DNA of 64,000 nt from a virus. Below, piece by piece: positions 31,566 to 60,090 of this stretch. Every line of letters begins with the position of its first letter. Positions within the stretch are counted from its first letter, which is position 1. The notes beneath the pieces were generated by a model. The model was not told where the DNA came from and did not search any database. It saw only the letters and a list, made by a program, of their open reading frames with translations. The stretch spans positions 32,897 to 96,896 of the IMG/VR virus record IMGVR_UViG_3300033553_000165. One strand, written 5' to 3'. The position numbers and the translations under genes are program-made.

Positions 31566-33245
31566 CTATGTTAATAGTTGTTTGTCGTCCACTTTCGGTG
31601 AAAGGAAGATGGAAGTTAGCTTTTGTTGATATGGTAATAAATATCTTTCTATGAAGTTGTGAACCTGTAAATCAGTCATTTCTTCTCCGTTATTTTTCAT
31701 CCAACTCAAAACCGTATTTTGCTGTTGTATAAATTGGGGATTCTTAATATAGGTTGAGCCGTCCTTCATACTCGGCAATATGTTTCTTCCTCTTATCAAA
31801 GGTCGCATTTTTAAATCCGCTATTTCTATACTTTGGGAAGAATTTGTAGAACCTCCATATATGCAGATTTTAATCTTTTCAACCGCATCGTTAAATTTTA
31901 AATTTATTCCCTTATTTATATTGAGTCTTGCGTTTGTAGCGTCTAACGAAGTGCTCTGGTTGGAGTAGATTATTCCCCTTATGAAATACCATTCATCTTG
32001 AACCTTAACTATTTCTTGTGCATTTGCAACGCTAAAGAAAGTATTATCAACCAACCCGTCAGTAATTTTCACGAAGGATAAATCTTTTTGAATCCCGTTC
32101 CTATTAAACCCTAAAACCCCGAAGTTGAAATTAAAACCCGTCAGCGCAGCAGTTCTCCGAACTTTAAAGGTTATTTCATAATCAATCTCAGGTTCAACCG
32201 TAATTAGTCTTTCAATAGGAACTTCGTTGGGAGGAGAGGATAAATCGAACCCTAAACCATTCAACCCTGCGGCTCCAACGATTTCAAGATTTCCGTCTAA
32301 AATTGACACGCTCCCTAAAGTATCGTATTTCGTAAGGTCTACAAATTCTTCGGTATTCTCTTCAGTTTTATTAAGCTGGGTTGAGAAATTGGTTCCGTTA
32401 TACAAAGGAGATGAATTACCAATATTGTAACCCATATGTTTTTTCTCCATAACTTCAATAAGAAATTCGTCATAGTAGTTCTTTATTAATATTCTTAGCC
32501 ATTCTCCTCTTACCGCTTGATCTCCCTTTTCCTTAGTTGTTAGAATCGTACCTCTTTTTCTGATCTCGTCTTTAAAGTTATTCGCTATAAATTGTAAATC
32601 TTCTAATAAGGTTTCCTGACCCGAAACTTTAATTCCTTTTTGTTTTAGGTTTTCTATCAGATAATCCCTTCGGTATAAAATCTCATCAAAGGTATTATTG
32701 AAGGCAGTGACCATAGCCATAAAGAAACAAACCGAACCCCATAAACTCACAAAATCTTCGTTATTGGTTTCGTCTCCCCTTTCGATGAAAGTCGGAAGAA
32801 TACCGTGGTAGTATATTTTCCGGAGAAGGTTATTTGCTAACTCATTAGTCACACTATCATTTTCAGCTAACTCAGCAAAAATACTTTCAACGGTTGCCGT
32901 ATTGTTACAAATTTGAAGTTCTATGTTCCCTAATAATTCTAAAGAAACGAACTCTAAAATTCCCGTTGTATTAGAACCGCTTCTTGAATATTTACATTCT
33001 ATGAAAAGCAGTCCAAAAATATGACCTTGTATTTTTTGAACGTTTTCATTACTTAACGGCATCCATTGGCTCCAAGTTAAATTATCTTTGGAATATCTGA
33101 AGTTCTTACTGAAGAATCTATCAACTGTTTCCCCTATCGCTACATCAACGAACCCTGTGAGATTTATTTCCCCTCTTACAGAAAGTTGTGTCTTGATAGT
33201 TAGGACATCTCCAATAGAATCTAATATGTTATTTGTTATAGCCAT
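31566..33245 (-). CDS. Baseplate structural protein
   Basis: Position after baseplate J; EIRKRGT motif as in wedge proteins. Confidence 0.55.
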   Translation of the reverse strand: MAITNNILDSIGDVLTIKTQLSVRGEINLTGFVDVAIGETVDRFFSKNFRYSKDNLTWSQWMPLSNENVQKIQGHIFGLLFIECKYSRSGSNTTGILEFVSLELLGNIELQICNNTATVESIFAELAENDSVTNELANNLLRKIYYHGILPTFIERGDETNNEDFVSLWGSVCFFMAMVTAFNNTFDEILYRRDYLIENLKQKGIKVSGQETLLEDLQFIANNFKDEIRKRGTILTTKEKGDQAVRGEWLRILIKNYYDEFLIEVMEKKHMGYNIGNSSPLYNGTNFSTQLNKTEENTEEFVDLTKYDTLGSVSILDGNLEIVGAAGLNGLGFDLSSPPNEVPIERLITVEPEIDYEITFKVRRTAALTGFNFNFGVLGFNRNGIQKDLSFVKITDGLVDNTFFSVANAQEIVKVQDEWYFIRGIIYSNQSTSLDATNARLNINKGINLKFNDAVEKIKICIYGGSTNSSQSIEIADLKMRPLIRGRNILPSMKDGSTYIKNPQFIQQQNTVLSWMKNNGEEMTDLQVHNFIERYLLPYQQKLTSIFLSPKVDDKQLLT

Positions 33246-33580
33246 TATCTCTGGTAGATTAATTCGCCTTGATCATTTATAGAATAACTGCTGGCGTGTG
33301 CGTCGGAAATAACTAACTCCCCACCTATATCAACATTAATAATTAAGTCTCTATTTTTGCTTATCAATAATTCGCCCTCTAAGCCCATTGATGAATCAAT
33401 CTTTTTTCTTTCCTCTAGAAGTTCCACGTTAGTGATATTCATAGGGTTCAAAACCTCTTCATCGTTTTGATCCTCATTGTGAGCTAAGATTTTTAGGGAG
33501 ATTGATCCCGTGTTATCTTCTAAGCTTAAACTCAAATCAACCACTTCAGTTTTGGAGGATGAATATGTTTTCTTTTCCAT
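33245..33580 (-). CDS. Hypothetical virion protein
   Basis: ORF track; repeated GELxI motif; coupled to both neighbours. Confidence 0.55.
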   Translation of the reverse strand: MEKKTYSSSKTEVVDLSLSLEDNTGSISLKILAHNEDQNDEEVLNPMNITNVELLEERKKIDSSMGLEGELLISKNRDLIINVDIGGELVISDAHASSYSINDQGELIYQR

Positions 33581-34776
33581 TATAGAGATTTTAATACGGT
33601 TGCTTGATAACTAAAATCCAAGTCATTTGGATAGTAAACAGGGTTCAATGTTTCCGTCTGGTTGGAGATAAGTTCCCCTTTCATATTCATCATCATAAAC
33701 CCTCGGAACCTCGGAAGGTGTCCTCTCGGGATAATTAAGTCATTGTTAGGGAAGAAATAATTGTCTAACACACGATTTACTCCCCGAACACCTTTTATAG
33801 CGTTAATCAAGTCTATCCAGTCTATTATTCCTCCGTCGTCCCAAAGTCTGTAGTCAACGACCTTATTGATAGCAATTTGAATATGTTTCCGAACGTTATC
33901 CGGATTATAAGAAGAATCAATATCTACACGACAACTTATGTCAATTGGAAAGTAAGGAATATTGATAATCTTTATACCGTAATTATTTCTACCATCAGGT
34001 TTCAACTCATTCATCGAAAAGTAGTTTTCCCCTTTAGCTAATATCTCCGCAAGTTCACCGCTTGAAAATTGAGCTCCATTAACTGCCGAAACTCCAATTT
34101 GAAGGTCTCCCACTTGATCTAGACCTAAATTATAAACCCTCAAAACATTTGGATTTATTTTTCGGAAAACTTGTTCTAGATATGAAATTGTACCCCGAGC
34201 CAAAACGTTGATCTCGTCTTTTATTCTTTGTCTAAAATTATCGTCATCCTCAAAATCTCTTCCACCAGTTGCCGAAAATTCATTTATACTATATTCGTGT
34301 CCAGCTGGTCTAGGACTTAATTGACTTATTGTTAAAGTCTCAACGTTTGTACTTGAACCGCTGTTTAGGCTTTTCACTTTTACATACGTAAATCCTTCCT
34401 CTGGTATCTCAACGCTCAACTCTGGAGTAAAGTCAATCCCTTTACCTTTAAAGATATGAAGATTGGGAGTGTAAGTCGTACCAGGAGCACCGACCACCCT
34501 TATATATGCTACACTTTGAGTTGCGCCTAATCTTCCTGCCACCCCTTGAAGTTCCGCTATCCTATCTAAATAATCCCCGAAGGCTGAATCCGGAAATAAA
34601 TGGGCTTCAACTACGGCAGTATCTTTTAGAACCTTTTGGGCTAATTTTCCGATACCATAACCGATACCATTCAGAACCGAACCGTCTGAAATCTTCGTAA
34701 CCTTATTGGTATGGTTTAGGAATGTTTCGGCGAAAATCCTTTTTAGTTCCTCTACAGGTGTTATTTTTGTTATCAT
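33580..34776 (-). CDS. Baseplate J-like wedge protein
   Basis: GSVL, AFGDYLDRIA..GV.R, GGRDFEDDDNFRQRI, VRGV. Confidence 0.88.
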   Translation of the reverse strand: MITKITPVEELKRIFAETFLNHTNKVTKISDGSVLNGIGYGIGKLAQKVLKDTAVVEAHLFPDSAFGDYLDRIAELQGVAGRLGATQSVAYIRVVGAPGTTYTPNLHIFKGKGIDFTPELSVEIPEEGFTYVKVKSLNSGSSTNVETLTISQLSPRPAGHEYSINEFSATGGRDFEDDDNFRQRIKDEINVLARGTISYLEQVFRKINPNVLRVYNLGLDQVGDLQIGVSAVNGAQFSSGELAEILAKGENYFSMNELKPDGRNNYGIKIINIPYFPIDISCRVDIDSSYNPDNVRKHIQIAINKVVDYRLWDDGGIIDWIDLINAIKGVRGVNRVLDNYFFPNNDLIIPRGHLPRFRGFMMMNMKGELISNQTETLNPVYYPNDLDFSYQATVLKSL

Positions 34777-46346: not shown

Positions 46347-47054
46347 TTATTCGTTTACATTAGTTATAATACCTGTTGAAGCGAAAGTTTTAATTACTCT
46401 ATTTCTAAATAATTCCGGAACGTGTACTTCGTAGAAGAAATTTATACTAAATGATCTATGAAATATATGAGTCGGAACCTTATCGCTCTGAAGACTAACA
46501 TCGTTTCCTCCAAATTTAGGATTCCTCAAACCTGCGAGTTCAAGATGAGCATTTAAGCTAATAAAACAAGCTTTTATGAAATTATATATTAATAAGACTT
46601 CCAAAGTATTTTCTGAAGTTATCATAAGTTGATAAGTTGCGTCAAACTTATTGGTGAAGACCGCTTGATGATTTTGTTGAGTTGTTTCACCCTCCAAAAA
46701 TTCCGTAAGTATTCCATCTTGATAATTTTCATCAGCTCCAATACCTAATGGACTTCCACTTTCGCTCGGTAGAAGAATATGAATACAGCCCATTGCCGCA
46801 ACTTCTAAGTTGTATCCTAAATTTATTTCTACGTCTTTATTTATAAAAAGATCAACCGCTTGGTCGTAATGATTAAAGGTTTCTAAACTAATATCATTAT
46901 CATTTTCATCCTTCTTAAAAAATCTGTAAAGCATAGTCTCCGTTTCTGGGTATGCTACAAAGTCTTCTTTGAGTAATTTAAACATTGCCTTCAAAGTTTT
47001 ATACAAAACCATTTCCGGCATTATGAGTCCATATGAATTATTAGATACCGCCAT
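46347..47054 (-). CDS. Tail terminator/completion-like protein
   Basis: Position in the neck module. Confidence 0.5.
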   Translation of the reverse strand: MAVSNNSYGLIMPEMVLYKTLKAMFKLLKEDFVAYPETETMLYRFFKKDENDNDISLETFNHYDQAVDLFINKDVEINLGYNLEVAAMGCIHILLPSESGSPLGIGADENYQDGILTEFLEGETTQQNHQAVFTNKFDATYQLMITSENTLEVLLIYNFIKACFISLNAHLELAGLRNPKFGGNDVSLQSDKVPTHIFHRSFSINFFYEVHVPELFRNRVIKTFASTGIITNVNE

Positions 47055-49949: not shown

Positions 49950-51455
49950 TTATACTGGACTAACATTTCCAATATTCACGATACGCACCATTTTCTTTGG
50001 AGCATAAAGGAAAGGAGTACCGTAGAGTAAGATCATAAACCTATATGCTGGGCTTAAAAGCGCCAAGTCCATTTTCATAAGCGGAGCAAGTTGAGCGAAC
50101 TCAATTACTTCGTTATCCATTTGGAACAAGATAGCTTGGTCAGTATCCGGCATAAATCTGTTTCTGTCTCTTACCGCTCCAGCAGTAGCTCCGTCGTATC
50201 CAGCTGTCTTTTCAGCAGCAGAGATAGTGAAGACTGGGTAGAAAGTCGCTTCAGCAGCTGTAGCGGCACCCTTGTTAGAGCGATATACAGTGTAAGAAGT
50301 AGCTCCATTAGCACCTCCACCGTCAGTGAAAGCTAAGTCGGCAGACCCTCCTGCAACAATAGCAGTAGCTGTAGTGGCAGAACCAATAACAGCAAGAGTC
50401 GATTCACCATAACGGTTTGTAGCCGATACAGCGAAGAAATAGTTTCCAGCGTCAGTAGCTTCCCAAGCCGAACTTCCATCTGTTCCAACCGCAGTAAGAG
50501 ATACTGAAGCTACAGGGTTTGGAGCACTTGGGGAAGTGGCACCGTTAGTAAGTCTTTTTGTTGCTCTTTTGTTGAAGAAAATATCCCAGTTAAGTCCGAT
50601 ATTCCCAAATTGAGATTCGAAAGACTTAACCCTTTGACCCATCACACCCTCAGAAAGAGCATTCGTGTTAGGCTGGATAAATTTATTCCCGTAGAAATTC
50701 TTCACAAAGTTGGAAAGAACTTTTGGCGGAGCGAATAACTGGTTTCCTAAACCGAAGTTCTGGATGATACCGTTCGCTGAATCCTCAATAACTTCTTCGC
50801 TCAACATTTTACCTTTAGCGTTGATAACTACTTCAGAACCGAAGTAAGCATCTAAATCCGCATATCCGGAATTTCTTTGGTGTTGTGCAAGGAAACCGTT
50901 AAATTCCTGAGGAACTAAGGTTTCGTCACCGAAGTAAAGAGACTTGTTCAATTGGCGCAATATCCACATTGTACCATTTTTGATTTCTCTCTCTACTACG
51001 TTTCCAACGTGAGTGTTAACTAAGGTCATAGGGTGAGTCACTGACTTCACAACTCCCATAAACTTCACTAACTGTGCACGTCTAACGTAAGTAGAGTCTT
51101 CCTCATTCGGAAGTTCTCCTTCGTTGTAAAATCCTCCTCTTTCCTGACCGTAAGATACAAGCTGGTTGTATTCTTCTACAGTGTTGTAGGCAGATTTCTT
51201 AGGGACCATTTTCCAGAAAACGATGTCGCTTTCCTTAAATGTTAAGTGCTTTAGAGTCTTGTCTAGACTTTCAACTTTCAAAGGAGCACCAGACGCTGTT
51301 GACGAATCTGCGGTATCTCTACCTGTAATCGACCCAGCCTCAAGTGCTTTTTGTAGTTGGTTTAATTCCTCCATAGAAGAACCGCCTGCGATTGAGCCCT
51401 GTCCATTACTTGCAGCAGCTTTAGCATAATCGGCTAAATTTAATCCTGGTGTCAT
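49950..51455 (-). CDS. Major capsid protein (SPO1/Twort-like)
   Basis: LQKALEAG, GAPLKVESLD, TVEEY, FYNEG, LYFGD...EFNG, QLAPLMKMDLA, LYGTPFLYAPKK. Confidence 0.92.
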   Translation of the reverse strand: MTPGLNLADYAKAAASNGQGSIAGGSSMEELNQLQKALEAGSITGRDTADSSTASGAPLKVESLDKTLKHLTFKESDIVFWKMVPKKSAYNTVEEYNQLVSYGQERGGFYNEGELPNEEDSTYVRRAQLVKFMGVVKSVTHPMTLVNTHVGNVVEREIKNGTMWILRQLNKSLYFGDETLVPQEFNGFLAQHQRNSGYADLDAYFGSEVVINAKGKMLSEEVIEDSANGIIQNFGLGNQLFAPPKVLSNFVKNFYGNKFIQPNTNALSEGVMGQRVKSFESQFGNIGLNWDIFFNKRATKRLTNGATSPSAPNPVASVSLTAVGTDGSSAWEATDAGNYFFAVSATNRYGESTLAVIGSATTATAIVAGGSADLAFTDGGGANGATSYTVYRSNKGAATAAEATFYPVFTISAAEKTAGYDGATAGAVRDRNRFMPDTDQAILFQMDNEVIEFAQLAPLMKMDLALLSPAYRFMILLYGTPFLYAPKKMVRIVNIGNVSPV

Positions 51456-51508
51456 ACTCCTCTTAATTTAGATTGATAATTAATATTCATTGTTAATTTT
51501 AATACCTG

Positions 51509-53041
51509 TTATTCTACAATATTTATTCCGTGTTCAGTTTTTAATCGCTGAATAGTATTCACAGGTAGCATTTTTGAAGCTTCTAAAGAAGTCGTTGCCT
51601 TAGCAAATTCTTCGTCATATCCTCCTTTAGCAAACGATAAACCGTCAACCAAGTTCAATACTTCCTTATAGTTTCTGGTAAGACTTAAAACCTTCCCTTG
51701 TTCTACATTTCCTTTTTGAAAACTTTCTTTTTCACGAACCTGAGTAGCTTTTGTAAGAGAACGTCTCTGACCGCCCATAGGGTTTTTAATCATTTTTTCA
51801 ATTTGTTGGTTAGCTTTCTCAAGCCTTCCTTCTAAATTCCGGTTGGCTTTTTTCAAGCTTCCCAATTCCCCTACAATAAGTTCGTTCTGGTCAAGAACAC
51901 CTTTTAGTAGTTGACCTACAGCTTTGGAATGTAGGATTGAATTTGATTCAGACTTTTCAATGGCCTTTTTCAAAATCATAACGGCACCTTTATTAAGGTC
52001 ACTCCCTGCGATTTGATCTTCTTTCGCTTCGCCGGAACCTTCTGCCTTTTTTACTTCAGTTTCTTTTTTCACGTTTTCAGTTTCTTTAGCTTTTTTAACT
52101 TCTTCCACTTCTGCTTCGTCTTCCTTAAATAATTTCTTAGAAGCAGCTTCTGCTACTTCATCGTCAGACAAATTATCTTTTTCAGCTTTCTCCAGGAAGG
52201 GACTTTTTTCAATTGAACCTAATCCAAGGATATCCATAGCCTTTTTTAGATTTTCGTTGTTGATTTCACCTTTAGCCATTTTATCTTGTATTTTGTTAAA
52301 CAAATTATAAACCTTTTCAGCTTTCTCTATTGTAATATTTGGAAAGGTATCAAAAATTAAATCATACATACCTTCCTCGGACAAATCTACTACCTTATAC
52401 GTCTCCCCTTTCTTCAAATCTTTCTTTTGAGAACCGTCTACCGATTCCTTTACCAACGCTGCTCCGGACTCTGTAGATAAGGATTTCTCCTCCTTTTCCA
52501 GTTCGTCATCTTCTTCCTCAAATTCGTTAGTAGTATGTCCCTTAATTATTTGAGCAAAAGTTTTAGGATTTTTCGGCATATGTGTAATGGCTAAACCTGT
52601 TATTTTTGCTTTCTTAACTTTTTTGTAGTCTGGGTGAGATTGATCATCGCTTCCTCTCTCAATTACAGAACCCTCTATGGAATAACCTAATTTTCGTGTT
52701 TTGCTATCACGTTCCATAACTTCCGCTAATTCATAAACTTCTCTAGCTAATGGTGAAGATGGATATAAATTGGAAGCAACGTAAAAACCATCTTTTCGTA
52801 TTTCTACCAAATATGGTTCTCCTATAATTGTAGCAGGACTCTTTGTGGATTGGTGGTGCCAGTTAACAACACCTAATTTTTGGAAGTCTTCTATTTCAAA
52901 TCCGGATGGGTCAAGAAATTCGCCGTCAGAATCTTCGTCCATTGTAGAAGCGATACCTCCAAGGCGCATAACTTCAACGCCATTTTCGTCTTTCGCCTTT
53001 GAGATTTCTACAGGACAGTAGAATGTAAAATTTTTCGACAT
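51509..53041 (-). CDS. Prohead protease fused to a scaffold-like coiled-coil domain
   Basis: GIAST.DEDSDGE, NWHH, LGYSIEG, ITGLAITHMPKN; long charged helical C-terminal half. Confidence 0.88.
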   Translation of the reverse strand: MSKNFTFYCPVEISKAKDENGVEVMRLGGIASTMDEDSDGEFLDPSGFEIEDFQKLGVVNWHHQSTKSPATIIGEPYLVEIRKDGFYVASNLYPSSPLAREVYELAEVMERDSKTRKLGYSIEGSVIERGSDDQSHPDYKKVKKAKITGLAITHMPKNPKTFAQIIKGHTTNEFEEEDDELEKEEKSLSTESGAALVKESVDGSQKKDLKKGETYKVVDLSEEGMYDLIFDTFPNITIEKAEKVYNLFNKIQDKMAKGEINNENLKKAMDILGLGSIEKSPFLEKAEKDNLSDDEVAEAASKKLFKEDEAEVEEVKKAKETENVKKETEVKKAEGSGEAKEDQIAGSDLNKGAVMILKKAIEKSESNSILHSKAVGQLLKGVLDQNELIVGELGSLKKANRNLEGRLEKANQQIEKMIKNPMGGQRRSLTKATQVREKESFQKGNVEQGKVLSLTRNYKEVLNLVDGLSFAKGGYDEEFAKATTSLEASKMLPVNTIQRLKTEHGINIVE

Positions 53042-53483: not shown

Positions 53484-55586
53484 TTACTTGAATTCTTTTA
53501 CTATCATTTTACTCCTATTCAAAATAATAGCGAAGTCGGTATTTGACCCCCAACCTCTTTTACTTACAATAGCGTCGTAACCTTTAATGGCCGCATAGAA
53601 CCCTCGATATGTACCTCCAGGATTTTGTATTATCTGAGCAATCACCGCATTTGTTGTATTGCTTCCATTAACCCGTAATTTTTGAATATCGTCAGATAAG
53701 GTCTTTATGGTTTGTTCTGCAACTTTAATGCTATCATTGATATCAACCATTTTCGGATTCTCTATTTTCTCTTCCGCTATCTTAAGAGCGACCGCTGCTC
53801 GGATAGTCTGAAAGTGGTTCTTCATAACGTATTGCTTCAACCTTGTATAATGCCAGTTGTAAGGAGTCGTGTGGTCAAATTTTTGTTTAATACTTACATC
53901 TGCAATATCCTTGTTTAATAGGAAGGTTTCACTAGAATTTGGTAAACTTACTTTCCAAGTTTTTTCGTCAACCTCTTCTAATTTTCCATTAACGCTTTTC
54001 AGGATAGCTTCATAATAGGTAACAACTTTTTGTATATCAAATTTTTCTGTATCGGCATAAACTTCTTCCGGCTTGCTAAATAAAAGTATATTGTAGGCTT
54101 TCTCGTTCCAGCCCATTTTTTCTTTTACGTTGAAATCAATTTCATCTTCAATTCTTTCTCTTTCATTAAGTAGTTCGTTGAAGTCGTCTTTCGCTGTATC
54201 GTATTCTTTTTTCTTTTCCTTAAACTCATCACCAAAGAACTCGTCATTCATCATTTGATCAAGTTCCTCTCCGTCTATAACCTTAGCGTCGGAAGGTATA
54301 ATTACATCAAGTACGTGATCTGGGTCTCCTCCGGCATATCCTAATGCTACATTGTAATCTTCGTTATAAGGTGGAGGATTTACCCTCTTAGCGTTAACAG
54401 CCGCATAAATTCCGGCTCCGTACATAGCTTGAGTTCCGTAGAAACATTCTTCTCCCTCAGCAAAATCCCTCATAAACTTCTTAGCAGGATTTCCATAAGA
54501 ACCCGTTAATCCACGGTTCAGCATAAGGTTTTTGGGGTCGTCTTTGAGTAGCTTCGCAAATTCCTTTTCAGTGACTACTGTAGGAGGTTTATCGAACCCT
54601 CTCAGCTTACAAATATTTGAAAGGAAAGACCAGCCATTACTGTCAGTAGCAGTAATATTTCCAGCTTTCCTCATAGCTCTACTGATTTCCCTTTCTCTTA
54701 GTTCTCTATGTGGATCTTTTTCTTCGTCAGATACATAATCCTTCAAGTCTAATAACCTATTGGTCATCGTTTCCTTAAGATCAGCGTCCTCTATTAATGA
54801 AAGAATATTATCTCCCTTAACAAGAATTTGCTTTATTTGCTTTTTTATTTGAGCGTCGGTTAAACCCGAAGCCATATATGGGTTATGTTGAGCCATAGAA
54901 TCAAGCTCATCGACATCATCGGTGAAATGGTCTCCCTTGGGACGTCCTTGAGCTGAGAATCTTAGCGCTCCTCCGTTATCAACCCTAACAAAACTTCCGT
55001 CGTCATTATTATTAAGAATATTATCGTTCTTATAGATATCCCAGTTAGCCAATAAACAATCAAGTACAAAGTGGTTAGCTATATCATCACGAAGCTGATC
55101 ATCCATAATATCGTTAGCGGCAACCGTATTAGGCATAAAATCCGAAAGTAAGGTAGAACTGTCCTTCCCCTTATACAGTTTCATATTAGGCACGCTCACG
55201 TCAAATAGCTTATAAATACAGTTGGCGAGATATTCCTCCTCAACGTGCGCTTTGCTATTCCCGTTCTTCATAACGTATTGATTCCCGTCCTTATCTTCTA
55301 CAAGTTTAGCGCCTGTAGAACCACCTAAACCCTTTACCAACTTTACGTCAGTAATTTCAGGAAAATGGTCGGTTTCGAAAAGTTCGTCGGCTGACTTAGC
55401 CTTCGCCTTCTTAGTTAATTTACGCCAATCAAGTTTTCCGGATGGCGTCATCTTTACGATAAAAGTCTCTCCGTTCACTACTTTAATATCCCCAAGTTTT
55501 AAAGCCTTCATCAATATTTGAGAAGGCTCTAATCCATTAAGGTGATCTCGTAAAGTTCTTGACTTTATGAATTCAATCTTATTCAT
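53484..55586 (-). CDS. Multidomain protein: PI3/4-kinase/HipA-like kinase plus ADP-ribosyltransferase-like domain
   Basis: LGGSTGA..YVMK, EEYLAN, DCLLANWD..NDNI, VDNGGAL (kinase); NRG...YGAGIY...A..Y...DAKVI...AAIKGYDAI...IILNR (ART-like). Confidence 0.72.
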   Translation of the reverse strand: MNKIEFIKSRTLRDHLNGLEPSQILMKALKLGDIKVVNGETFIVKMTPSGKLDWRKLTKKAKAKSADELFETDHFPEITDVKLVKGLGGSTGAKLVEDKDGNQYVMKNGNSKAHVEEEYLANCIYKLFDVSVPNMKLYKGKDSSTLLSDFMPNTVAANDIMDDQLRDDIANHFVLDCLLANWDIYKNDNILNNNDDGSFVRVDNGGALRFSAQGRPKGDHFTDDVDELDSMAQHNPYMASGLTDAQIKKQIKQILVKGDNILSLIEDADLKETMTNRLLDLKDYVSDEEKDPHRELREREISRAMRKAGNITATDSNGWSFLSNICKLRGFDKPPTVVTEKEFAKLLKDDPKNLMLNRGLTGSYGNPAKKFMRDFAEGEECFYGTQAMYGAGIYAAVNAKRVNPPPYNEDYNVALGYAGGDPDHVLDVIIPSDAKVIDGEELDQMMNDEFFGDEFKEKKKEYDTAKDDFNELLNERERIEDEIDFNVKEKMGWNEKAYNILLFSKPEEVYADTEKFDIQKVVTYYEAILKSVNGKLEEVDEKTWKVSLPNSSETFLLNKDIADVSIKQKFDHTTPYNWHYTRLKQYVMKNHFQTIRAAVALKIAEEKIENPKMVDINDSIKVAEQTIKTLSDDIQKLRVNGSNTTNAVIAQIIQNPGGTYRGFYAAIKGYDAIVSKRGWGSNTDFAIILNRSKMIVKEFK

Positions 55587-57060
55587 TAAATTTTAGGATT
55601 TCAAGTGCTTTTTGAATACTATCTACATCAGCCTGATCCGTCCAAGTTCCTTTCACTAAATACCGCTTAACTTCGTCTTTCCAATCTTCTTTTGGTCCGA
55701 AGGCTTGAATAGCAATACTTGGATTGTTATCGTGATCCTCATTCGCTTCTTCAATTGCCCGTTTCTTATTAATAGCTTCCATCATAGTTCTAGAAGTAAA
55801 CCTTCCTGGATCAATGCTATCGATATTGTCTGAGATTATTTCAAAAACGTCTTCTCTTTCTTCTTGATCTTCGGTCTTATCGTCCAAACGGTCAATACCC
55901 GTAAAGTCAAATTTATGACGAAGGTTTCCGATAAATTGTAATTGTTCTCTTTTAGTGAAATTTATATCCTTCTTAATCGCTCTGGAATAAATAGCGTTAA
56001 TGTGAGAATCTTTAGTAAGATCGTCTTGGGTCATATTCGTAAGGAATATAATTTGACCAGTAAATTCAAACGGATCAACGTTAGAACTACTGTTCATACT
56101 TACCTTACCGATTATCCTTTTACCTCCAGAAGCTGTAGCCTTTTTCATTATACCTCTACAATCCTTTTCTGTAAGAACGTTATCCGTATCATCGAAAAGA
56201 ATTACTTTCCCGTTGTGTTGTTGTAGGATTTGTAAAAGCTGAGAAGGGGAAGCAACTTCACCTACTTCTGCGTAATCATAATCTCCATCTCCTGGTTCGT
56301 GTTCAGTCGAGTCAAAAGGACGCTTTCCTCTAATTTCCGCAACTAAGTGAAAGTTGTAAGATTTACCTACACCCGCACCACCCGATGCAATCATCAGTGG
56401 AGAATCGCTTCTTAGGAAACGGGAATACGTTTTATTAAGGTCAAAAATTTCTTGTTGTGGCGGAACGTAATGGGGCATCGAAGTTTTCATCTTATGGATG
56501 AATTGATCGGCAGCAATACGTTGTCTTTTAGTTTTTAATCCTCCGAATTTCTTTTTAATGAAATCAGGATTATCCCATTCTTCCATTTCTTCAAGTAATT
56601 CTTCATCATCCAAAATATCTTGAATACCTTGTCCGGAAGGAGCGGAAGTAGCAGCGGCAGGTGGTGGAGTTGTTCCGTCGCCCATAGCGTCTATCATTTT
56701 TCCATAACGACCAGTCTTCAAATCAATATCAGAAACATCCTCATCTCTACTTACTAATTCGTCGTAAGCAGCTTGCCTTAATTCCGGAGCATTTCCTGGT
56801 TTGTTAGCATATTCCTTTAAGGTTTTTACGTCTTTCTTTTTCAAAACTCCAAGAAGTTTAGACATATTAGAACCTCCACCTGAAGTCTTTTTTGAAGCCT
56901 TAGAAGATGCTTGTTTTCTCCAGTCAAACTTTCCAGGTTTATATTCCGTCCAAACTAAAGTGTCGCCGTGTTTATCAACTCTAGTATCTCCTACTTGTCG
57001 AGTCGCAGCTTTTGAAATGATATCGCCTAATGCTTCAGACGCTTTTTGGTTACTTTCCAT
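55579..57060 (-). CDS. AAA+ ATPase with N-terminal extension
   Basis: SGGAGVGKS (Walker A), ILFDDTD (Walker B), IIFLTN (sensor 1), AIYSR (Arg finger). Confidence 0.85.
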   Translation of the reverse strand: MESNQKASEALGDIISKAATRQVGDTRVDKHGDTLVWTEYKPGKFDWRKQASSKASKKTSGGGSNMSKLLGVLKKKDVKTLKEYANKPGNAPELRQAAYDELVSRDEDVSDIDLKTGRYGKMIDAMGDGTTPPPAAATSAPSGQGIQDILDDEELLEEMEEWDNPDFIKKKFGGLKTKRQRIAADQFIHKMKTSMPHYVPPQQEIFDLNKTYSRFLRSDSPLMIASGGAGVGKSYNFHLVAEIRGKRPFDSTEHEPGDGDYDYAEVGEVASPSQLLQILQQHNGKVILFDDTDNVLTEKDCRGIMKKATASGGKRIIGKVSMNSSSNVDPFEFTGQIIFLTNMTQDDLTKDSHINAIYSRAIKKDINFTKREQLQFIGNLRHKFDFTGIDRLDDKTEDQEEREDVFEIISDNIDSIDPGRFTSRTMMEAINKKRAIEEANEDHDNNPSIAIQAFGPKEDWKDEVKRYLVKGTWTDQADVDSIQKALEILKFNE

Positions 57061-57099
57061 TATCTTGAAAATTTTATCGTTTACTTATCATAATAGCTG

Positions 57100-58515
57100 T
57101 TAATCACTCATCCAGTGAGGCATCTCATCATATTTAAAATGAGATGTCATAATTTTTACCGCCTCATCTTGAATCTTCTTAGTTGATTTTCCAACTTCCA
57201 GCTGCTTTATTAAACTTTGGGCATTTACAACCTCCAAAAGTAATTGCATATTCAAGTTCGGATTTAACAAATCTTTAGCTAACTCAAAATTATGCCTTAT
57301 ATCCTTCTTAAATTTCTTCGGACACATTTCCTTAGCTTTATTAAGATACTCCCCAAATTCGGCTGGAGTAGAATCGTACGGAATGTATATCGCCTTTAAG
57401 TCACGGAAAATAAAATCTTCCTCAACTACATCTTTCCGATAATTTCTAAGAACGGGATAACAACCGTTAATTATTGCTTCAATTATAAACCCGTTGAGAT
57501 GTGTATTTACAAATTTAGCGTAATGGGTACTGAAGGATGGGTCAATGGCAAACTTGGAATTTCTGAGTAAGAAATTAACTTCCTCATTACTTATCAACCC
57601 CAAATATTCCATACCGTGTTCTTCCGCTCTCGTCCAAAGACTTTTTCCTACGTCTTTTTTTAAACAGTCCGGATCAGTCTTAACCGAAACGGTATATTTA
57701 GGCTTTTGTTTTTCTACATTATCCGTCATCATATAATAGAGCTCAATCCCACTTCCAGCTACCATAGTCGTCGCCTTAAACAAATAAGGAACCGCTGAAA
57801 CTAAATCTTCCATCCGCTTCATAGATTTAAAAATATGAGCAGCGAAAAAATCTACCGACCTTTCTTCCATACCTAAAAATGGAGTTGTATTTTCGTCGTC
57901 AATATAGCGTGAGTCTAAATTAAGAAGTCTGGGGATATCAAAAACCTTACACGCCTCATAACTTGTAATATGTACACATTCAAAAAACTTAATCTTGGAC
58001 TTTAATAAATTCGTCCAACTATTTCGCATATCATAATACCCGTCGTGTATTGTAAGAACTTGTTTAATACTCTCAGGAATTTCAAAATAACGGTGCCACC
58101 AATTAAACCCTTTCGCTTCGCTGGTCTTAGTTGGTACGAAACTCCATATAATAAGGTCAACCCCCTCTAAGGCTTTATTCCAATAGTCTAAACCCGTTTC
58201 TTCATTCAAACACGCTATCCTATTGGTATTCGGTTTCAATAACCAACCATAGTAAGAATTAAACCAATATCCCGTTATCTCAGATTTGGCGTAACCTCCA
58301 TTTTGACTTTTTATTTCTAAGCTGTCTTGAAAGTCTCCGGATTCTAATTTCTCTAATTTCTTATCATATTGATTTTCCGGAATACTATTTACATAATCCA
58401 ATATGATAATATCTACGTCGTGACCTAAATCCTGAAGTGCCTTAAATTTAGCTTCGATGTGAGCAACGATGCCTCCATATTTTGCAATAGCAAATGTAGC
58501 GAATCTTATTTTCAT
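57100..58515 (-). CDS. GT-B fold glycosyltransferase (GT4-like)
   Basis: YGGIVAH...LQDLGHDV; KSMKR; AGSG; YLGLIS; IDPS; IIEAIINGCYPV. Confidence 0.85.
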   Translation of the reverse strand: MKIRFATFAIAKYGGIVAHIEAKFKALQDLGHDVDIIILDYVNSIPENQYDKKLEKLESGDFQDSLEIKSQNGGYAKSEITGYWFNSYYGWLLKPNTNRIACLNEETGLDYWNKALEGVDLIIWSFVPTKTSEAKGFNWWHRYFEIPESIKQVLTIHDGYYDMRNSWTNLLKSKIKFFECVHITSYEACKVFDIPRLLNLDSRYIDDENTTPFLGMEERSVDFFAAHIFKSMKRMEDLVSAVPYLFKATTMVAGSGIELYYMMTDNVEKQKPKYTVSVKTDPDCLKKDVGKSLWTRAEEHGMEYLGLISNEEVNFLLRNSKFAIDPSFSTHYAKFVNTHLNGFIIEAIINGCYPVLRNYRKDVVEEDFIFRDLKAIYIPYDSTPAEFGEYLNKAKEMCPKKFKKDIRHNFELAKDLLNPNLNMQLLLEVVNAQSLIKQLEVGKSTKKIQDEAVKIMTSHFKYDEMPHWMSD

Positions 58516-59174
58516 TTCTTGGTATAAAATTCTTCAGGTAATTTTTTATCAATATAACCTTTCTCAAAAAATAATAAGCTTCTTTGGGTTTTGTATATTT
58601 CATAAGCGGCATCAAATTTTAGCTTATGATTTTCTTCGTTGAAATAAAGTTCCGGCTCAGATAGTCCGTGGGTGAATTCTTCCATAGAACCTTTAGCCTT
58701 CACTTTGTAGCTATGAGGAAAATCTCTATAAAATACGTCCGCATATTTTTGAGTAGTAAACCTAACGAACCAATGCATTGGATGCCCTATTCCTAAGCAA
58801 ACAACTATCTCATAATTTCGCTTTTTATATTTCTTCACTATGCTAATTATGTCTCTCCCTAATTCCGACATAAACTTTCCGCCAAACCTATGATCAAGCG
58901 TTTTCATACTATCTTCTACATTAAACTTTTTAAAATTCAGTTCCTTATAGTAAGTGTAATATGAATTGTCCTCAAATTCAACGTTAGAATTTATGTATTC
59001 GTCTATTCCAAAAAGGTCGCATAGTATTTCATCTTCCAGCGCTCTTTTTTCATTACGCTCAACTGTGAATAAAGTAACCTTACCATAATCTTCCCTGTTG
59101 AATAGGTATCGGGACGCACTAAATAATACGTCGTCTGAGTGCGGCTGGATAAGCAGCAAATTCTTTTTAGCCAT
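58512..59174 (-). CDS. PIG-L/LmbE-family de-N-acetylase
   Basis: LIQPHSDD, RALED, GIGHPMH, FYRDFPH, K..A...YKTQ; ATGA-coupled to the glycosyltransferase. Confidence 0.82.
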   Translation of the reverse strand: MAKKNLLLIQPHSDDVLFSASRYLFNREDYGKVTLFTVERNEKRALEDEILCDLFGIDEYINSNVEFEDNSYYTYYKELNFKKFNVEDSMKTLDHRFGGKFMSELGRDIISIVKKYKKRNYEIVVCLGIGHPMHWFVRFTTQKYADVFYRDFPHSYKVKAKGSMEEFTHGLSEPELYFNEENHKLKFDAAYEIYKTQRSLLFFEKGYIDKKLPEEFYTKK

Positions 59175-59187
59175 CTAATTTTAATTT

Positions 59188-60090
59188 TTACGTTATTTTA
59201 ATCTTAACTTTGGACTTCCTTTTTACTCCGTGAGTGTTTCTTGTAATTACAAAACGCTTCTTAGCATTATCCCATTTAGAATCTGGAGGAATAACGTGTA
59301 AAATTGAACGAGCCCAAGGATGAGCAGGACCAACGACTGGGTCTTGATCTTTCTTTCCGATATTATTTCCGTTAGCTAATAAATCATCTAATCTATAAAT
59401 AACAGGCTTGTCTCCTGGTTTGCCGTAATTTTCTTCACAGTGTTTACAAACTCCTGGAAAGGTTTGTTTATAAACTTCAACATCTGGTCCGTAAGTATCT
59501 AATAATTCTTGAGCTCTTCCGAAGGCATATGCTTCTTGTAAAACAAAATCCGCTATTCTGGAGAAGTCTCTAGCCCAATCTTCAGTGAGATGTCTGAGTT
59601 CGGATGCTAATTGTTGACTCGTCCAACCCTTATCAAAACCCTCTATAGATTTTTTCTTAACTGCCGCTGTAATCTTTTTACGTTTACTGACCGAAGCTGT
59701 TAGGATTCTATTTGATAGATTGCTCTTCATTTTATTACCTAATCCGGCAAGATCAGTGAAGGCTCTATTTTTTATATAAGCCAACCCCTCAGTTTTTGTA
59801 ACGCTATTTGGTTGATTTAATCTTTCTTTGAAGAATTTCTCGAAGTTCTTATTGGTAACTTTAAATGACTTCAAACCTCCTAAAGATTGAGCCATCATAC
59901 CAAAATAATATGCCCGATCAACTTCGGACATAAAGGTATCAAAATCATCTGGGTCTACCCCATAAGACTTTAGAAGCATAATTTGGTAAGGAGATAGGTA
60001 TTCTAAACCTAATTGTGAGCCTATGAATACCGCTTGATTCTTATCTATGATCTCAAGTATTTTCCATATCTGACTAATACTAAAATTCAT
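59188..60090 (-). CDS. MuF/gp7-like head morphogenesis protein
   Basis: DW.RDF.RIA, CKHC, GPAHPWAR (variant of HPxCR). Confidence 0.7.
   Translation of the reverse strand: MNFSISQIWKILEIIDKNQAVFIGSQLGLEYLSPYQIMLLKSYGVDPDDFDTFMSEVDRAYYFGMMAQSLGGLKSFKVTNKNFEKFFKERLNQPNSVTKTEGLAYIKNRAFTDLAGLGNKMKSNLSNRILTASVSKRKKITAAVKKKSIEGFDKGWTSQQLASELRHLTEDWARDFSRIADFVLQEAYAFGRAQELLDTYGPDVEVYKQTFPGVCKHCEENYGKPGDKPVIYRLDDLLANGNNIGKKDQDPVVGPAHPWARSILHVIPPDSKWDNAKKRFVITRNTHGVKRKSKVKIKIT

What the first reader, a model, noticed from the sequence alone, without database searches (positions are those of the whole stretch)
55419..57012. Shared N-terminal tag on two unrelated enzymes: candidate capsid-loading/ejection signal
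Seen: the AAA ATPase has IISKA-ATRQVGDTRVDKHGDTLVWTEYKPGKFDWRK (KA to WRK at 56914-57012), and the kinase/ART has LMKA-LKLGDIKVVNGETFIVKMTPSGKLDWRK (55419-55508). The consensus is KA..GD....G.T......GK.DWRK, followed in both by a K/A/S-rich linker. Both begin right after a protease-type K-A site, and the ATPase also ends with LVKG...IQKA. The genes overlap, follow a late-promoter motif and lie between MuF and the prohead protease. Inference: a modular system of cleavable propeptide, ~30-aa beta module and interchangeable enzymatic cargo that is packaged in the head and injected.
Basis: partly seen in the sequence, partly recalled or inferred. Interest (0 to 1): 0.8.

Follow-up and report, generated by a model that had tools for sequence, protein, structure and literature searches.

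The report
Shared N-terminal hairpin tag on phage head-module enzymes
Two unrelated enzymes of this uncultured ~97-kb phage share a real, widespread N-terminal unit (helical leader, protease-type site, Trp-rich beta-hairpin, flexible linker) that is attached to many different proteins in head-gene clusters and most likely marks them for loading into the capsid, although loading itself is not shown.

Summary
The two segments lie exactly at the stated coordinates. An HMM built from them finds a third copy in the same genome. A 57-sequence profile finds 672 protein clusters among 1.84 billion proteins.

The unit consists of:
- a helical leader ending in hydrophobic-x-K-A
- a 28-31-aa aromatic beta-hairpin (core VGDxHPNGKWVWTEYKPGKFDWR)
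- a basic or Gly/Ser linker
- a variable C-terminal part: P-loop ATPase, kinase-fold protein, Zn-metallopeptidase, NUDIX, or many unknowns

All 75 N-terminal copies examined lie next to head genes. Internal copies lack the K-A site and mostly lie elsewhere.

The motif hydrophobic-x-K-[A/G/S] is 5-9-fold enriched in the scaffold domains of four phages, and it is conserved at the capsid protein N-terminus as far as Bacillus phage SP-10. This fits a prohead-protease site.

Related phages put different lineage-specific tags on the same ATPase.

Cleavage, packaging and injection remain inference. Which element does the targeting, the leader or the hairpin, is open.

The hairpin is absent from Pfam and from the searched literature. 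The scan's other window independently noted the RLNILKGF leader in this genome.

The parts
55579..57060 (-). ORF-A, 493 aa: tagged P-loop NTPase
   Evidence: ORF list. phrog_1250 at aa 211-415, E 3e-18. 44 orthologs in related contigs, all tagged.
57019..57060 (-). ORF-A leader, aa 1-14
   Evidence: Precedes the I-S-K-A site. Orthologs have leaders of about 4-16 aa before the site, such as MAKKEETIEKA.
57007..57018 (-). ORF-A putative protease site I-S-K-A (aa 15-18)
   Evidence: Hydrophobic-x-K-[AG] directly precedes 142 of 153 module copies in the top 150 clusters. The same motif is enriched in scaffolds.
56914..57009 (-). ORF-A hairpin module, aa 18-49
   Evidence: Family HMM domain 18-49, 55 bits. 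The homologous segment of the 372-aa paralog folds as a beta-hairpin, pLDDT 78-87.
56866..56913 (-). ORF-A basic Ser/Gly linker, aa 50-65
   Evidence: Read from the sequence. Comparable low-complexity linkers follow the module in nearly all family members.
55582..55671 (-). ORF-A C-terminal tail with L-V-K-G and I-Q-K-A-L-E-I-L
   Evidence: The terminal motif hydrophobic-(Q/E)-K-A-E-x-I-L or SLDEAExILL is conserved in ATPase orthologs. It resembles the 'EAExILKA' leaders of other tagged proteins.
53484..55586 (-). ORF-B, 700 aa: tagged kinase-fold protein with a second alpha/beta domain
   Evidence: AF2 model pLDDT 90.2. Foldseek finds protein kinases, probability 1.0. BFVD hits include a portal fusion, Gordonia phage proteins and proteins named ADP-ribosyltransferase.
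55503..55514 (-). ORF-B putative protease site L-M-K-A (aa 25-28)
   Evidence: Hydrophobic-x-K-A is conserved in front of the module in nearly all of the 120 ORF-B orthologs listed.
55419..55505 (-). ORF-B hairpin module (diverged subtype), aa 28-56
   Evidence: Family HMM 38 bits. Three strands at 34-37, 40-46 and 52-57 in the AF2 model. The subtype PGQTKVVDG..Y.YT.TP...YDWR is conserved across orthologs.
54717..55349 (-). ORF-B protein-kinase-like domain, about aa 80-290
   Evidence: Invariant motifs LANWD...NDNIL and RVDNGG. Fold hits to ROCK1, PKA and actin-fragmin kinase. tblastn hits to Gordonia phage gp67 next to the portal.
59188..60090 (-). MuF-like minor head protein, 300 aa
   Evidence: No Pfam or PHROG hit. 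Atlas features score 0.95 to a cluster that is 86% PF04233; structural neighbours are MuF and minor capsid protein 2.
51512..52558 (-). Scaffold part (aa 162-510) of the protease-scaffold protein, dense in hydrophobic-x-K-[AGS]
   Evidence: 19 motifs against 2.85 expected; 0 of 5000 shuffles reach 19. Control motifs are not enriched.
51345..51356 (-). Capsid protein N-terminal L-Q-K-A (aa 34-37), candidate maturation site
   Evidence: Conserved as hydrophobic-x-K-A followed by hydrophobic-(E/Q)-A-G in MA9V-3, DAC19 and the Bacillus SP-10 'major capsid protein precursor'.
57091..57101 (-). Promoter-like motif AACAGCTATTA upstream of ORF-A
   Evidence: Exact copies also lie before the capsid gene (51500-51510) and at 46367 and 36793. 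10 hits against 3.2 expected. CAGNTATTA lies about 45 nt upstream of ATPase orthologs across the family.

Best explanation
The shared segment is a homologous, portable N-terminal unit with four parts: an alpha-helical leader, a hydrophobic-x-K-(A/G/S) site, a 28-31-aa aromatic beta-hairpin, and a basic or Gly/Ser linker.

In this family of ~100-kb Bacteroidota-type myophages with SPO1-like heads, the unit marks late proteins encoded among the head genes for incorporation into the procapsid. The scaffold-fused prohead protease then cuts at the K-(A/G/S) site, as it does many times in the scaffold and once near the N-terminus of the capsid protein. This removes the leader and leaves the hairpin at the new N-terminus of the enzyme. 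The enzyme stays in the head and is presumably delivered to the cell with the DNA.

Shown here:
- homology and modularity of the unit
- the hairpin prediction
- strict association of N-terminal copies with head modules and with the K-A site
- motif enrichment in scaffolds and conservation in capsid proteins
- lineage-specific alternative tags on the same ATPase

Inferred: cleavage, packaging, injection, and which element (leader, hairpin or both) binds the procapsid.
For: - Third copy in the same genome at E 1.4e-8.
- 67 loci in viral contigs. The profile search gives 672 clusters at E<=1e-3 and 288 at E<=1e-10.
- The module starts within the first 80 aa in 142 of 150 clusters, and 142 of 153 copies are directly preceded by hydrophobic-x-K-[AG].
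- At least 7 unrelated C-terminal parts, including P-loop ATPase, kinase fold, M90/ATLF-like Zn-peptidase, NUDIX and DUF6496.
- 75 of 75 N-terminal copies lie within 6 kb of portal, MuF-like, TerL, protease or neighbouring head-module genes.
- Complete relatives carry 2-5 copies each.
- Scaffold enrichment of the site motif: 19 against 2.85 expected in this phage, and 15, 15 and 17 against 1.8-2.9 in three other phages. Controls are flat.
- The capsid protein site is conserved as far as Bacillus SP-10, whose scaffold also has 8 such motifs.
- The same ATPase carries a different shared tag in DAC19 (E 9e-11 between two proteins) and in MA9V-3 (E 6e-15).
- The promoter-like motif is shared with the capsid gene.
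- The ORF-B kinase domain is fused to a portal in one uncultured phage and lies in a 1479-aa protein encoded just after the portal in Gordonia phage GodonK.
Against: - There are no proteomic data. All members come from metagenomes and none carries an informative name.
- The hairpin lies after the putative cut, unlike the T4 targeting peptide, which is removed.
- Fourteen or more hairpin copies are internal, lack the K-A site, sit in winged-helix Lys-rich proteins outside head modules, and have a different upstream motif. The hairpin alone therefore cannot be equated with 'head protein'.
- In DAC19 the tagged ATPase is not in the head module.
- The site motif could partly reflect helix-end composition rather than protease specificity.
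- I found no published cleavage site for SPO1-like proteases in the held library.
Confidence: 0.55

Rival explanations
1. The proteins are packaged, but the hairpin is not the loading signal. The leader or the site is the targeting element. The hairpin is a separate binding module, for example for phage DNA, for the MuF-like or portal protein, or for a host target after injection. That would explain why it is kept after cleavage and reused internally in DNA-binding-type proteins.
For: - The hairpin lies downstream of the putative cut.
- It is flanked by Lys-rich stretches and occurs internally in winged-helix, Lys-rich proteins.
- 91 of 150 members have an extra conserved leader (h-R-x-x-V-x-x-N-I-x-K-[SAG]-F) with a second site.
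- The own-genome 590-aa protein has the leader without a hairpin, and the 139-aa protein has the leader with a different tag.
Against: - The ATPase family has only a leader of about 4-16 aa, yet always has the hairpin.
- Related phage lineages replace the hairpin by other short modules on the same ATPase. This fits a phage-specific partner better than a universal ligand such as DNA.
Confidence: 0.28
2. The tagged proteins are not virion components. The unit is an oligomerisation or localisation module for late, non-structural enzymes (for example assembly chaperones or DNA-modification helpers), and the K-A is merely the end of the leader helix.
For: - AF2 places the K-A at the C-terminal end of a long helix.
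- ORF-A and ORF-B lie next to a glycosyltransferase and a PIG-L-like gene.
- The tagged ATPase of DAC19 lies among small non-head genes.
Against: - The K-A is absent from all internal copies and present in nearly all N-terminal ones.
- The same motif is strongly enriched in scaffold domains.
- The cargo types (kinase, Zn-peptidase, NUDIX) match those fused to portal or MuF elsewhere.
Confidence: 0.15
3. The similarity is chance or low-complexity resemblance.
For: The pairwise E-value is only 0.008.
Against: Third copy at E 1.4e-8, and 288 clusters at E<=1e-10 in a library-wide profile search, with near-invariant G, W, G-K and D-W-R columns.
Confidence: 0.01

Closest known systems
T4 capsid targeting sequence (CTS) on internal proteins IPI-III and Alt, removed by the gp21 prohead protease (from established knowledge; reviewed in PMC9026906 and PMC9958956, found)
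   Same: A short N-terminal signal on unrelated proteins. It ends in the prohead-protease consensus, which also riddles the scaffold and trims the capsid protein. The cargo includes injected enzymes.
   Different: The site is hydrophobic-x-K followed by a small residue, not L/I-x-E. There is no sequence similarity. A conserved 30-aa hairpin follows the site and would be retained. The leaders are often about 30 aa and helical.
Propeptide-processed ejection proteins of phiKZ-like phages such as SPN3US (PMC5694885, PMC7411985, PMC10052503)
   Same: Many head-internal proteins are processed at a shared protease motif, and paralogous N-terminal regions are proposed to target proteins to the head.
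   Different: The motif there is (S/A/G)-x-E. Those are jumbo phages with a T4-like protease. No common hairpin module is described.
MuF- or portal-fused polymorphic toxins and polyvalent proteins of phages (from established knowledge; fold hits)
   Same: The cargo repertoire is the same (kinase-like, ART-like, Zn-peptidase, NUDIX), and so is the genomic position next to portal or MuF.
   Different: Here the cargo is encoded by separate genes with a common short tag, instead of being fused covalently to MuF or portal.
Encapsulin cargo-loading peptides (from established knowledge)
   Same: A short terminal peptide, a flexible linker and interchangeable enzymes, loaded into an HK97-fold shell.
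   Different: Encapsulin peptides are about 10 aa, usually C-terminal, and are not cleaved. No homology. Binding to the shell is not tested here.
P1 Dar antirestriction proteins with N-terminal packaging determinants (PMC9024508, PMC12810830)
   Same: Enzymes are incorporated into the head through N-terminal regions and in dependence on head morphogenesis proteins.
   Different: No shared portable module or common cleavage-site architecture is known for them.

Membership tests
T4-type capsid-targeting-sequence / internal-protein system | The same short N-terminal element on otherwise unrelated proteins of one phage | tested here: met
   Three proteins in this genome and at least 7 cargo classes in relatives.
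T4-type capsid-targeting-sequence / internal-protein system | The element ends in the prohead-protease consensus, which also occurs repeatedly in the scaffold and at the capsid protein N-terminus | tested here: inconclusive
   The sequence pattern is met: scaffold 19 against 2.85 expected, and the capsid L-Q-K-A is conserved. Actual cleavage is not testable here.
T4-type capsid-targeting-sequence / internal-protein system | L/I-x-E specificity and homology to the T4 CTS | tested here: not met
   The site has K, not E. Hydrophobic-x-E-[AGS] is not enriched in the scaffold (2 against 2.8 expected).
T4-type capsid-targeting-sequence / internal-protein system | Proteins present in virions and injected | not testable with these tools
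   All members come from metagenomes and none carries an informative name.
MuF/portal-fused polyvalent effector proteins | Effector domain covalently fused to MuF or portal | tested here: not met
   ORF-A and ORF-B are separate genes. The MuF-like protein has 300 aa and no effector.
MuF/portal-fused polyvalent effector proteins | Effector domains of the kinds found in such fusions, encoded beside portal or MuF | tested here: met
   The ORF-B kinase domain matches a 1201-aa portal fusion (E 1.7e-15, rmsd 2.2 over 225 columns) and GodonK gp67, which is encoded next to the portal. M90/ATLF peptidase and NUDIX occur as cargo.
Any curated domain family for the hairpin (Pfam-A) | Significant match of the tag segment to a Pfam model | tested here: not met
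   No family at E<=10 on ten tag segments. None on the full proteins.
P-loop NTPase (ORF-A cargo) | Walker A and Walker B motifs and a family profile match | tested here: met
   GGAGVGKS and VILFDD are in the sequence. phrog_1250 at E 3e-18. Pfam AAA models match only weakly, and only in orthologs.
Protein-kinase-like fold (ORF-B cargo) | Bilobal kinase fold with a catalytic-loop D/N and a metal-binding D | tested here: met
   AF2 pLDDT 90. Foldseek hits to kinases at probability 1.0. Invariant D176/N181/D183/N187-D188-N189 and D203-x-G205.
ADP-ribosyltransferase (ORF-B C-terminal domain) | ART fold with an R-S-E or H-Y-E catalytic set | tested here: inconclusive
   There are only whole-model hits to viral proteins named ADP-ribosyltransferase (E 1.6e-10 and 1.3e-6) and Atlas leads. 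The domain was not searched on its own, and no conserved catalytic Glu was identified.

The most novel reading that the evidence does not exclude
The Trp-rich hairpin, with or without its leader, is a self-contained transferable capsid-loading tag recognised by the interior of SPO1-type heads. Related phage lineages use a small alphabet of interchangeable tags (the hairpin, the NRKLGRVG type and the GREYIKTADGW type) matched to their own heads. This would be a natural plug-and-play system for loading arbitrary enzymes into phage capsids and delivering them into Bacteroidota cells.
Probability: 0.3. Interest if true: 0.8.

Novelty: new variant of a known kind. Interest (0 to 1): 0.62.

Why it matters
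If the unit is a loading and processing signal, it gives three things:
- A sequence rule for predicting the injected protein arsenal of a large group of uncultured Bacteroidota-type phages. There are 672 clusters, most with cargo of unknown function.
- A candidate protease specificity (hydrophobic-x-K followed by a small residue) for the whole SPO1-like head lineage.
- A compact tag that could be tested for packaging foreign proteins into phage heads.

It also shows an evolutionary alternative to the MuF- or portal-fused effector proteins: the same effector types, addressed by a short shared tag instead of a covalent fusion.

Tried and rejected
- megablast of the region against INPHARED phages found no match.
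- tblastn of a consensus-like tag against the same collection found no match. The family has no sequenced isolate there.
- Pfam on the full proteins and on tag segments at E<=10 found nothing for the tag.
- phmmer of ORF-A and ORF-B against PDB sequences found nothing meaningful.
- Foldseek of the leader-plus-hairpin model against PDB found no match, as expected for a helix plus hairpin.
- A full-text search for the tag sequence found 0 papers.
- Searches for a published cleavage site of SPO1-like or Herelleviridae prohead proteases turned up nothing usable. My recollection that Listeria phage A511 Cps is N-terminally processed could not be checked and is not used as evidence.
- I considered and rejected the idea that the K-A is an integral part of the hairpin fold. 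All internal copies lack it.
- I considered and rejected recent shuffling between ORF-A and ORF-B. The ORF-B family carries its own old, diverged subtype in nearly all of its listed orthologs.
- The context strings printed were mis-indexed and were ignored. The counts are correct.
Full report
**Setting.** The window is the right-hand 64 kb of a single 96,896-bp viral contig from a JGI/IMG metagenome. Nearly all genes are on the minus strand. The head genes are split by the contig ends. Their order in the direction of transcription is:
- TerL, then a 372-aa protein, a 139-aa protein and further genes, then an acidic 590-aa protein, portal and fibres
- then, wrapping around, lysis genes, a MuF-like 300-aa protein, a 220-aa protein, a 471-aa glycosyltransferase, ORF-A, ORF-B and a 136-aa protein
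- then the protease-scaffold fusion (phrog_1028) and the major capsid protein (phrog_752)

The capsid protein is closest to the Bacteroides thetaiotaomicron phages DAC16-23 and SJC03 (45% identity) and to Chryseobacterium phage MA9V-3 (40%). Next come SPO1-like and Twort-like Herelleviridae. The phage is therefore probably a Bacteroidota myophage with an SPO1-type head.

The coordinates are exact. BLASTP aligns only the N-terminal segments of ORF-A and ORF-B (17/47 identical, E 0.008). An HMM of just these two segments, searched against all six-frame ORFs of the genome, finds a third copy at E 1.4e-8. This copy is near the N-terminus of the 372-aa protein after TerL. It is again preceded by L-M-K-A and followed by a Gly/Ser/Ala/Lys linker.

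**The module is a large, undescribed family.**
- Pattern-plus-tblastn scanning of IMG/VR gave 67 loci, mostly on 55-100-kb contigs syntenic with this phage.
- A 57-sequence profile searched against 1.84 billion cluster representatives gave 672 proteins at E<=1e-3 and 288 at E<=1e-10.
- The core is (K/R)-x-V-G-D-x-H-P-N-G-K-W-V-W-T-E-Y-K-P-G-K-F-D-W-R, with near-invariant G, W, G-K and D-W-R positions.
- Pfam has no model for it, even at E<=10 on isolated segments. No paper in the held library contains the sequence.
- AlphaFold2 of residues 1-75 of the 372-aa paralog, with an 88-sequence alignment, gives a long helix (3-33) that ends at the K-A, followed by a beta-hairpin at 46-52/55-60. The hairpin pLDDT is 78-87.
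- In the full ORF-B model (pLDDT 90) the tag forms helix 3-16 and three strands.
- The alternating Trp and aromatic residues across the turn resemble a tryptophan-zipper hairpin. This last point is my reading of the sequence, not a tested result.

**Modularity.** After masking the tag, the tagged proteins fall into unrelated groups:
- the P-loop ATPase family of ORF-A (44 members, phrog_1250)
- the ORF-B family
- a phrog_14949 family
- M90/ATLF-like Zn-metallopeptidases
- several proteins of unknown function
- winged-helix, Lys-rich proteins with an internal copy

Pfam scanning of the top 150 clusters adds NUDIX, DUF6496, CotH-like kinase and others, but most have no known domain. Complete relatives (CheckV 99-100%) carry 2-5 copies each. 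A few proteins have two hairpins in tandem.

The ORF-B family carries its own old, diverged subtype of the hairpin in nearly all of its 120 listed orthologs. The resemblance between ORF-A and ORF-B is therefore ancient common design, not recent exchange.

**The K-A site.** In the top 150 clusters the module starts within the first 80 residues in 142 cases. Of 153 copies, 142 are immediately preceded by hydrophobic-x-K-(A/G), mostly I/F/L-E-K-A. The 11 exceptions are ten internal copies and one truncated protein. The K-A is therefore not part of the hairpin fold. It comes with the N-terminal position.

The same four-residue pattern, hydrophobic-x-K-[A/G/S], is strikingly enriched in the scaffold portion of the protease-scaffold protein. 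There are 19 copies against 2.85 expected, and 0 of 5000 shuffles reach 19. Variants with E or R at the K position, or with other flanking classes, are not enriched. Two relatives and MA9V-3 show the same enrichment (15, 15 and 17 copies against 1.8-2.9 expected). The separate 220-aa scaffold of Bacillus phage SP-10 has eight copies.

The capsid proteins of this phage, MA9V-3, DAC19 and SP-10 all have hydrophobic-x-K-A followed by hydrophobic-(E/Q)-A-G at residues about 24-37. The SP-10 protein is annotated 'major capsid protein precursor' in its record.

This is the signature expected of a prohead-protease site: many cuts in the scaffold, one in the capsid protein, and one in each internal protein, as with L/I-x-E in T4. 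Cleavage itself is inferred.

**Leaders.** Of the 150 clusters, 91 have a further conserved leader upstream (h-R-x-x-V-x-x-N-I-x-K-[S/A/G]-F) with a second such site. In this genome that leader is R-L-N-I-L-K-G-F. It occurs on the 372-aa, 139-aa and 590-aa proteins. The scan's other window noted it independently (e1-6076626).

A second leader type (x-E-A-E-x-I-L-K-A) resembles the conserved C-terminal tail of the ATPase family. I could not interpret this.

**Genomic context.** All 75 N-terminal copies with a site lie within 6 kb of head genes, often directly upstream of the MuF-like gene or after TerL. Fourteen of the 16 copies without a site do not. Thirteen of those sit next to a homolog of genome gene 32818-33927, among small genes. 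These counts include many closely related contigs.

ORF-A is preceded by AACAGCTATTA, the motif also found before the capsid gene and before the operon that contains the portal. CAGNTATTA lies about 45 nt upstream of ATPase orthologs throughout the family. The internal-copy genes have a different conserved upstream motif, CGTACCTTCGTA. This suggests a different temporal class.

**Lineage-specific tags on the same cargo.**
- In MA9V-3, the ATPase ortholog and a 521-aa protein just upstream of the MuF-like gene share a different module after L-I-K-A or L-E-K-G: I-G-x-x-R-T-F-x-G-R-E-Y-I-K-T-A-D-G-W-K (E 6e-15).
- In DAC19, the ATPase homolog and the protein just after the MuF-like gene share a third type: G-I-Y-x-D-x-P-x-N-R-K-L-G-R-V-G-M (E 9e-11).
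- The 139-aa protein of this genome carries the DAC type (E 1e-8).

One cargo with different tags in different phages, and one tag with different cargo within a phage, is the pattern of an addressing system matched to a phage-specific partner. It is harder to explain by a universal ligand such as DNA.

**The cargo.**
- ORF-A is a P-loop NTPase (Walker A and B; phrog_1250). Untagged or differently tagged homologs exist in T4-like and Bacteroides phages.
- ORF-B has a protein-kinase-like domain. Its PI3/4-kinase-style motifs are invariant in 66 orthologs, and the fold matches kinases, including actin-fragmin kinase.
- In BFVD the kinase domain matches a 1201-aa portal fusion (35% identity, rmsd 2.2). 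It also matches the 1479-aa gp67 encoded immediately after the portal of Gordonia phage GodonK, and large proteins named ADP-ribosyltransferase. The same enzyme type is therefore physically tied to head proteins in other phages.
- The ART assignment of the C-terminal domain remains unproven.

**What is most likely going on.** The tagged proteins are late proteins built into the procapsid. The protease removes the leader at hydrophobic-x-K followed by a small residue. The mature enzyme keeps the hairpin and linker at its N-terminus, remains in the head and leaves with the DNA. I put this at about 0.55.

The main uncertainty is the role of the hairpin itself. It could be the loading element, or an anchor or partner-binding element used after loading; I put the second reading at 0.28. 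The internal copies in Lys-rich winged-helix proteins, and the position of the hairpin after the cut, favour the second view. The constancy of the hairpin on short-leader proteins, and its lineage-specific replacement, favour the first. A non-virion role is less likely (0.15). Chance is excluded.

**Novelty.** The principle is known from T4, phiKZ-like phages and P1: a cleavable N-terminal address on internal or ejection proteins. The cargo types are known from MuF- and portal-fused effectors. New here are:
- the hairpin family itself
- the K-type site shared across the SPO1-like head lineage
- the retained-module architecture
- the apparent alphabet of alternative tags

I rate it a new variant of a known kind.

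Noticed in passing
L001:14608-15027 (-) (genome coordinates, outside the window): The 139-aa protein has the RLNILKGF leader, an A-L-E-K-A site and then a different tag (G-V-Y-G-D-N-P-E-N-R-R-L-G-R-V-G-L-K-Y). That tag is shared with three proteins of Bacteroides phage DAC19 (DAC19_80, DAC19_82 and DAC19_202).
   Followed up: partly
L001:8474-10246 (-) (genome coordinates): The 590-aa, extremely acidic (D/E-rich) protein just upstream of the portal carries the RLNILKGF leader and an E-L-T-K-G site but no hairpin. It is a candidate internal or DNA-mimic protein.
   Followed up: no
L001:13749-14582 (-) (genome coordinates): The 277-aa protein has 7 hydrophobic-x-K-[AGS] motifs in its first 130 residues (0.8 expected) and none in the rest. 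It is possibly a second scaffold-like or heavily processed head protein.
   Followed up: partly
window 55582-55671 (-): The C-terminal tail of the ATPase family is conserved (hydrophobic-(Q/E)-K-A-E-x-I-L-F, or SLDEAExILL). It resembles the 'EAExILKA' leader found at the N-terminus of other tagged proteins. The meaning is unknown.
   Followed up: partly
L033:5191-6477, L038:5593-6486, L045:2614-3975, L056:5248-6363 and similar: Winged-helix plus Lys-rich (histone-H1-like) proteins carry an internal hairpin without a K-A site. They are encoded among small genes and preceded by a distinct conserved motif, CGTACCTTCGTA. This phage has no such gene.
   Followed up: partly
L053:5836-8079, L058:10792-12075, P0019, P0039: Tandem double tags: a degenerate first hairpin (I-G-D-K-K-T-V-N-G-x-x-Y-I-C-K-G-F-T-S-x-G-K-P-x-W-R-K) is followed by I-x-K-A and a canonical hairpin.
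   Followed up: no
window 57091, 51500, 46367, 36793 (all minus strand); L001 10851: The motif AACAGSTATTA lies upstream of structural operons (before ORF-A, the capsid gene and the portal operon). It is a candidate late promoter element, conserved as CAGNTATTA in relatives.
   Followed up: partly
L001:10895-12720 (-) and window 57100-59174 (-): Candidate DNA or virion modification genes: an aGPT-PPlase-like gene (phrog_2396) with a glucosyltransferase-like gene (phrog_842), and a GT-B-like 471-aa glycosyltransferase with a 220-aa protein placed directly between the MuF-like gene and ORF-A. This arrangement is conserved across the family.
   Followed up: no
L071 (Bacillus phage SP-10) 3798-4460 and 4477-5889: The hydrophobic-x-K-[S/G/A] pattern also marks the scaffold (8 copies in 220 aa) and the capsid protein precursor (L-N-K-A at residue 24) of an SPO1-like Bacillus phage. 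This suggests one protease specificity for the whole head lineage.
   Followed up: partly
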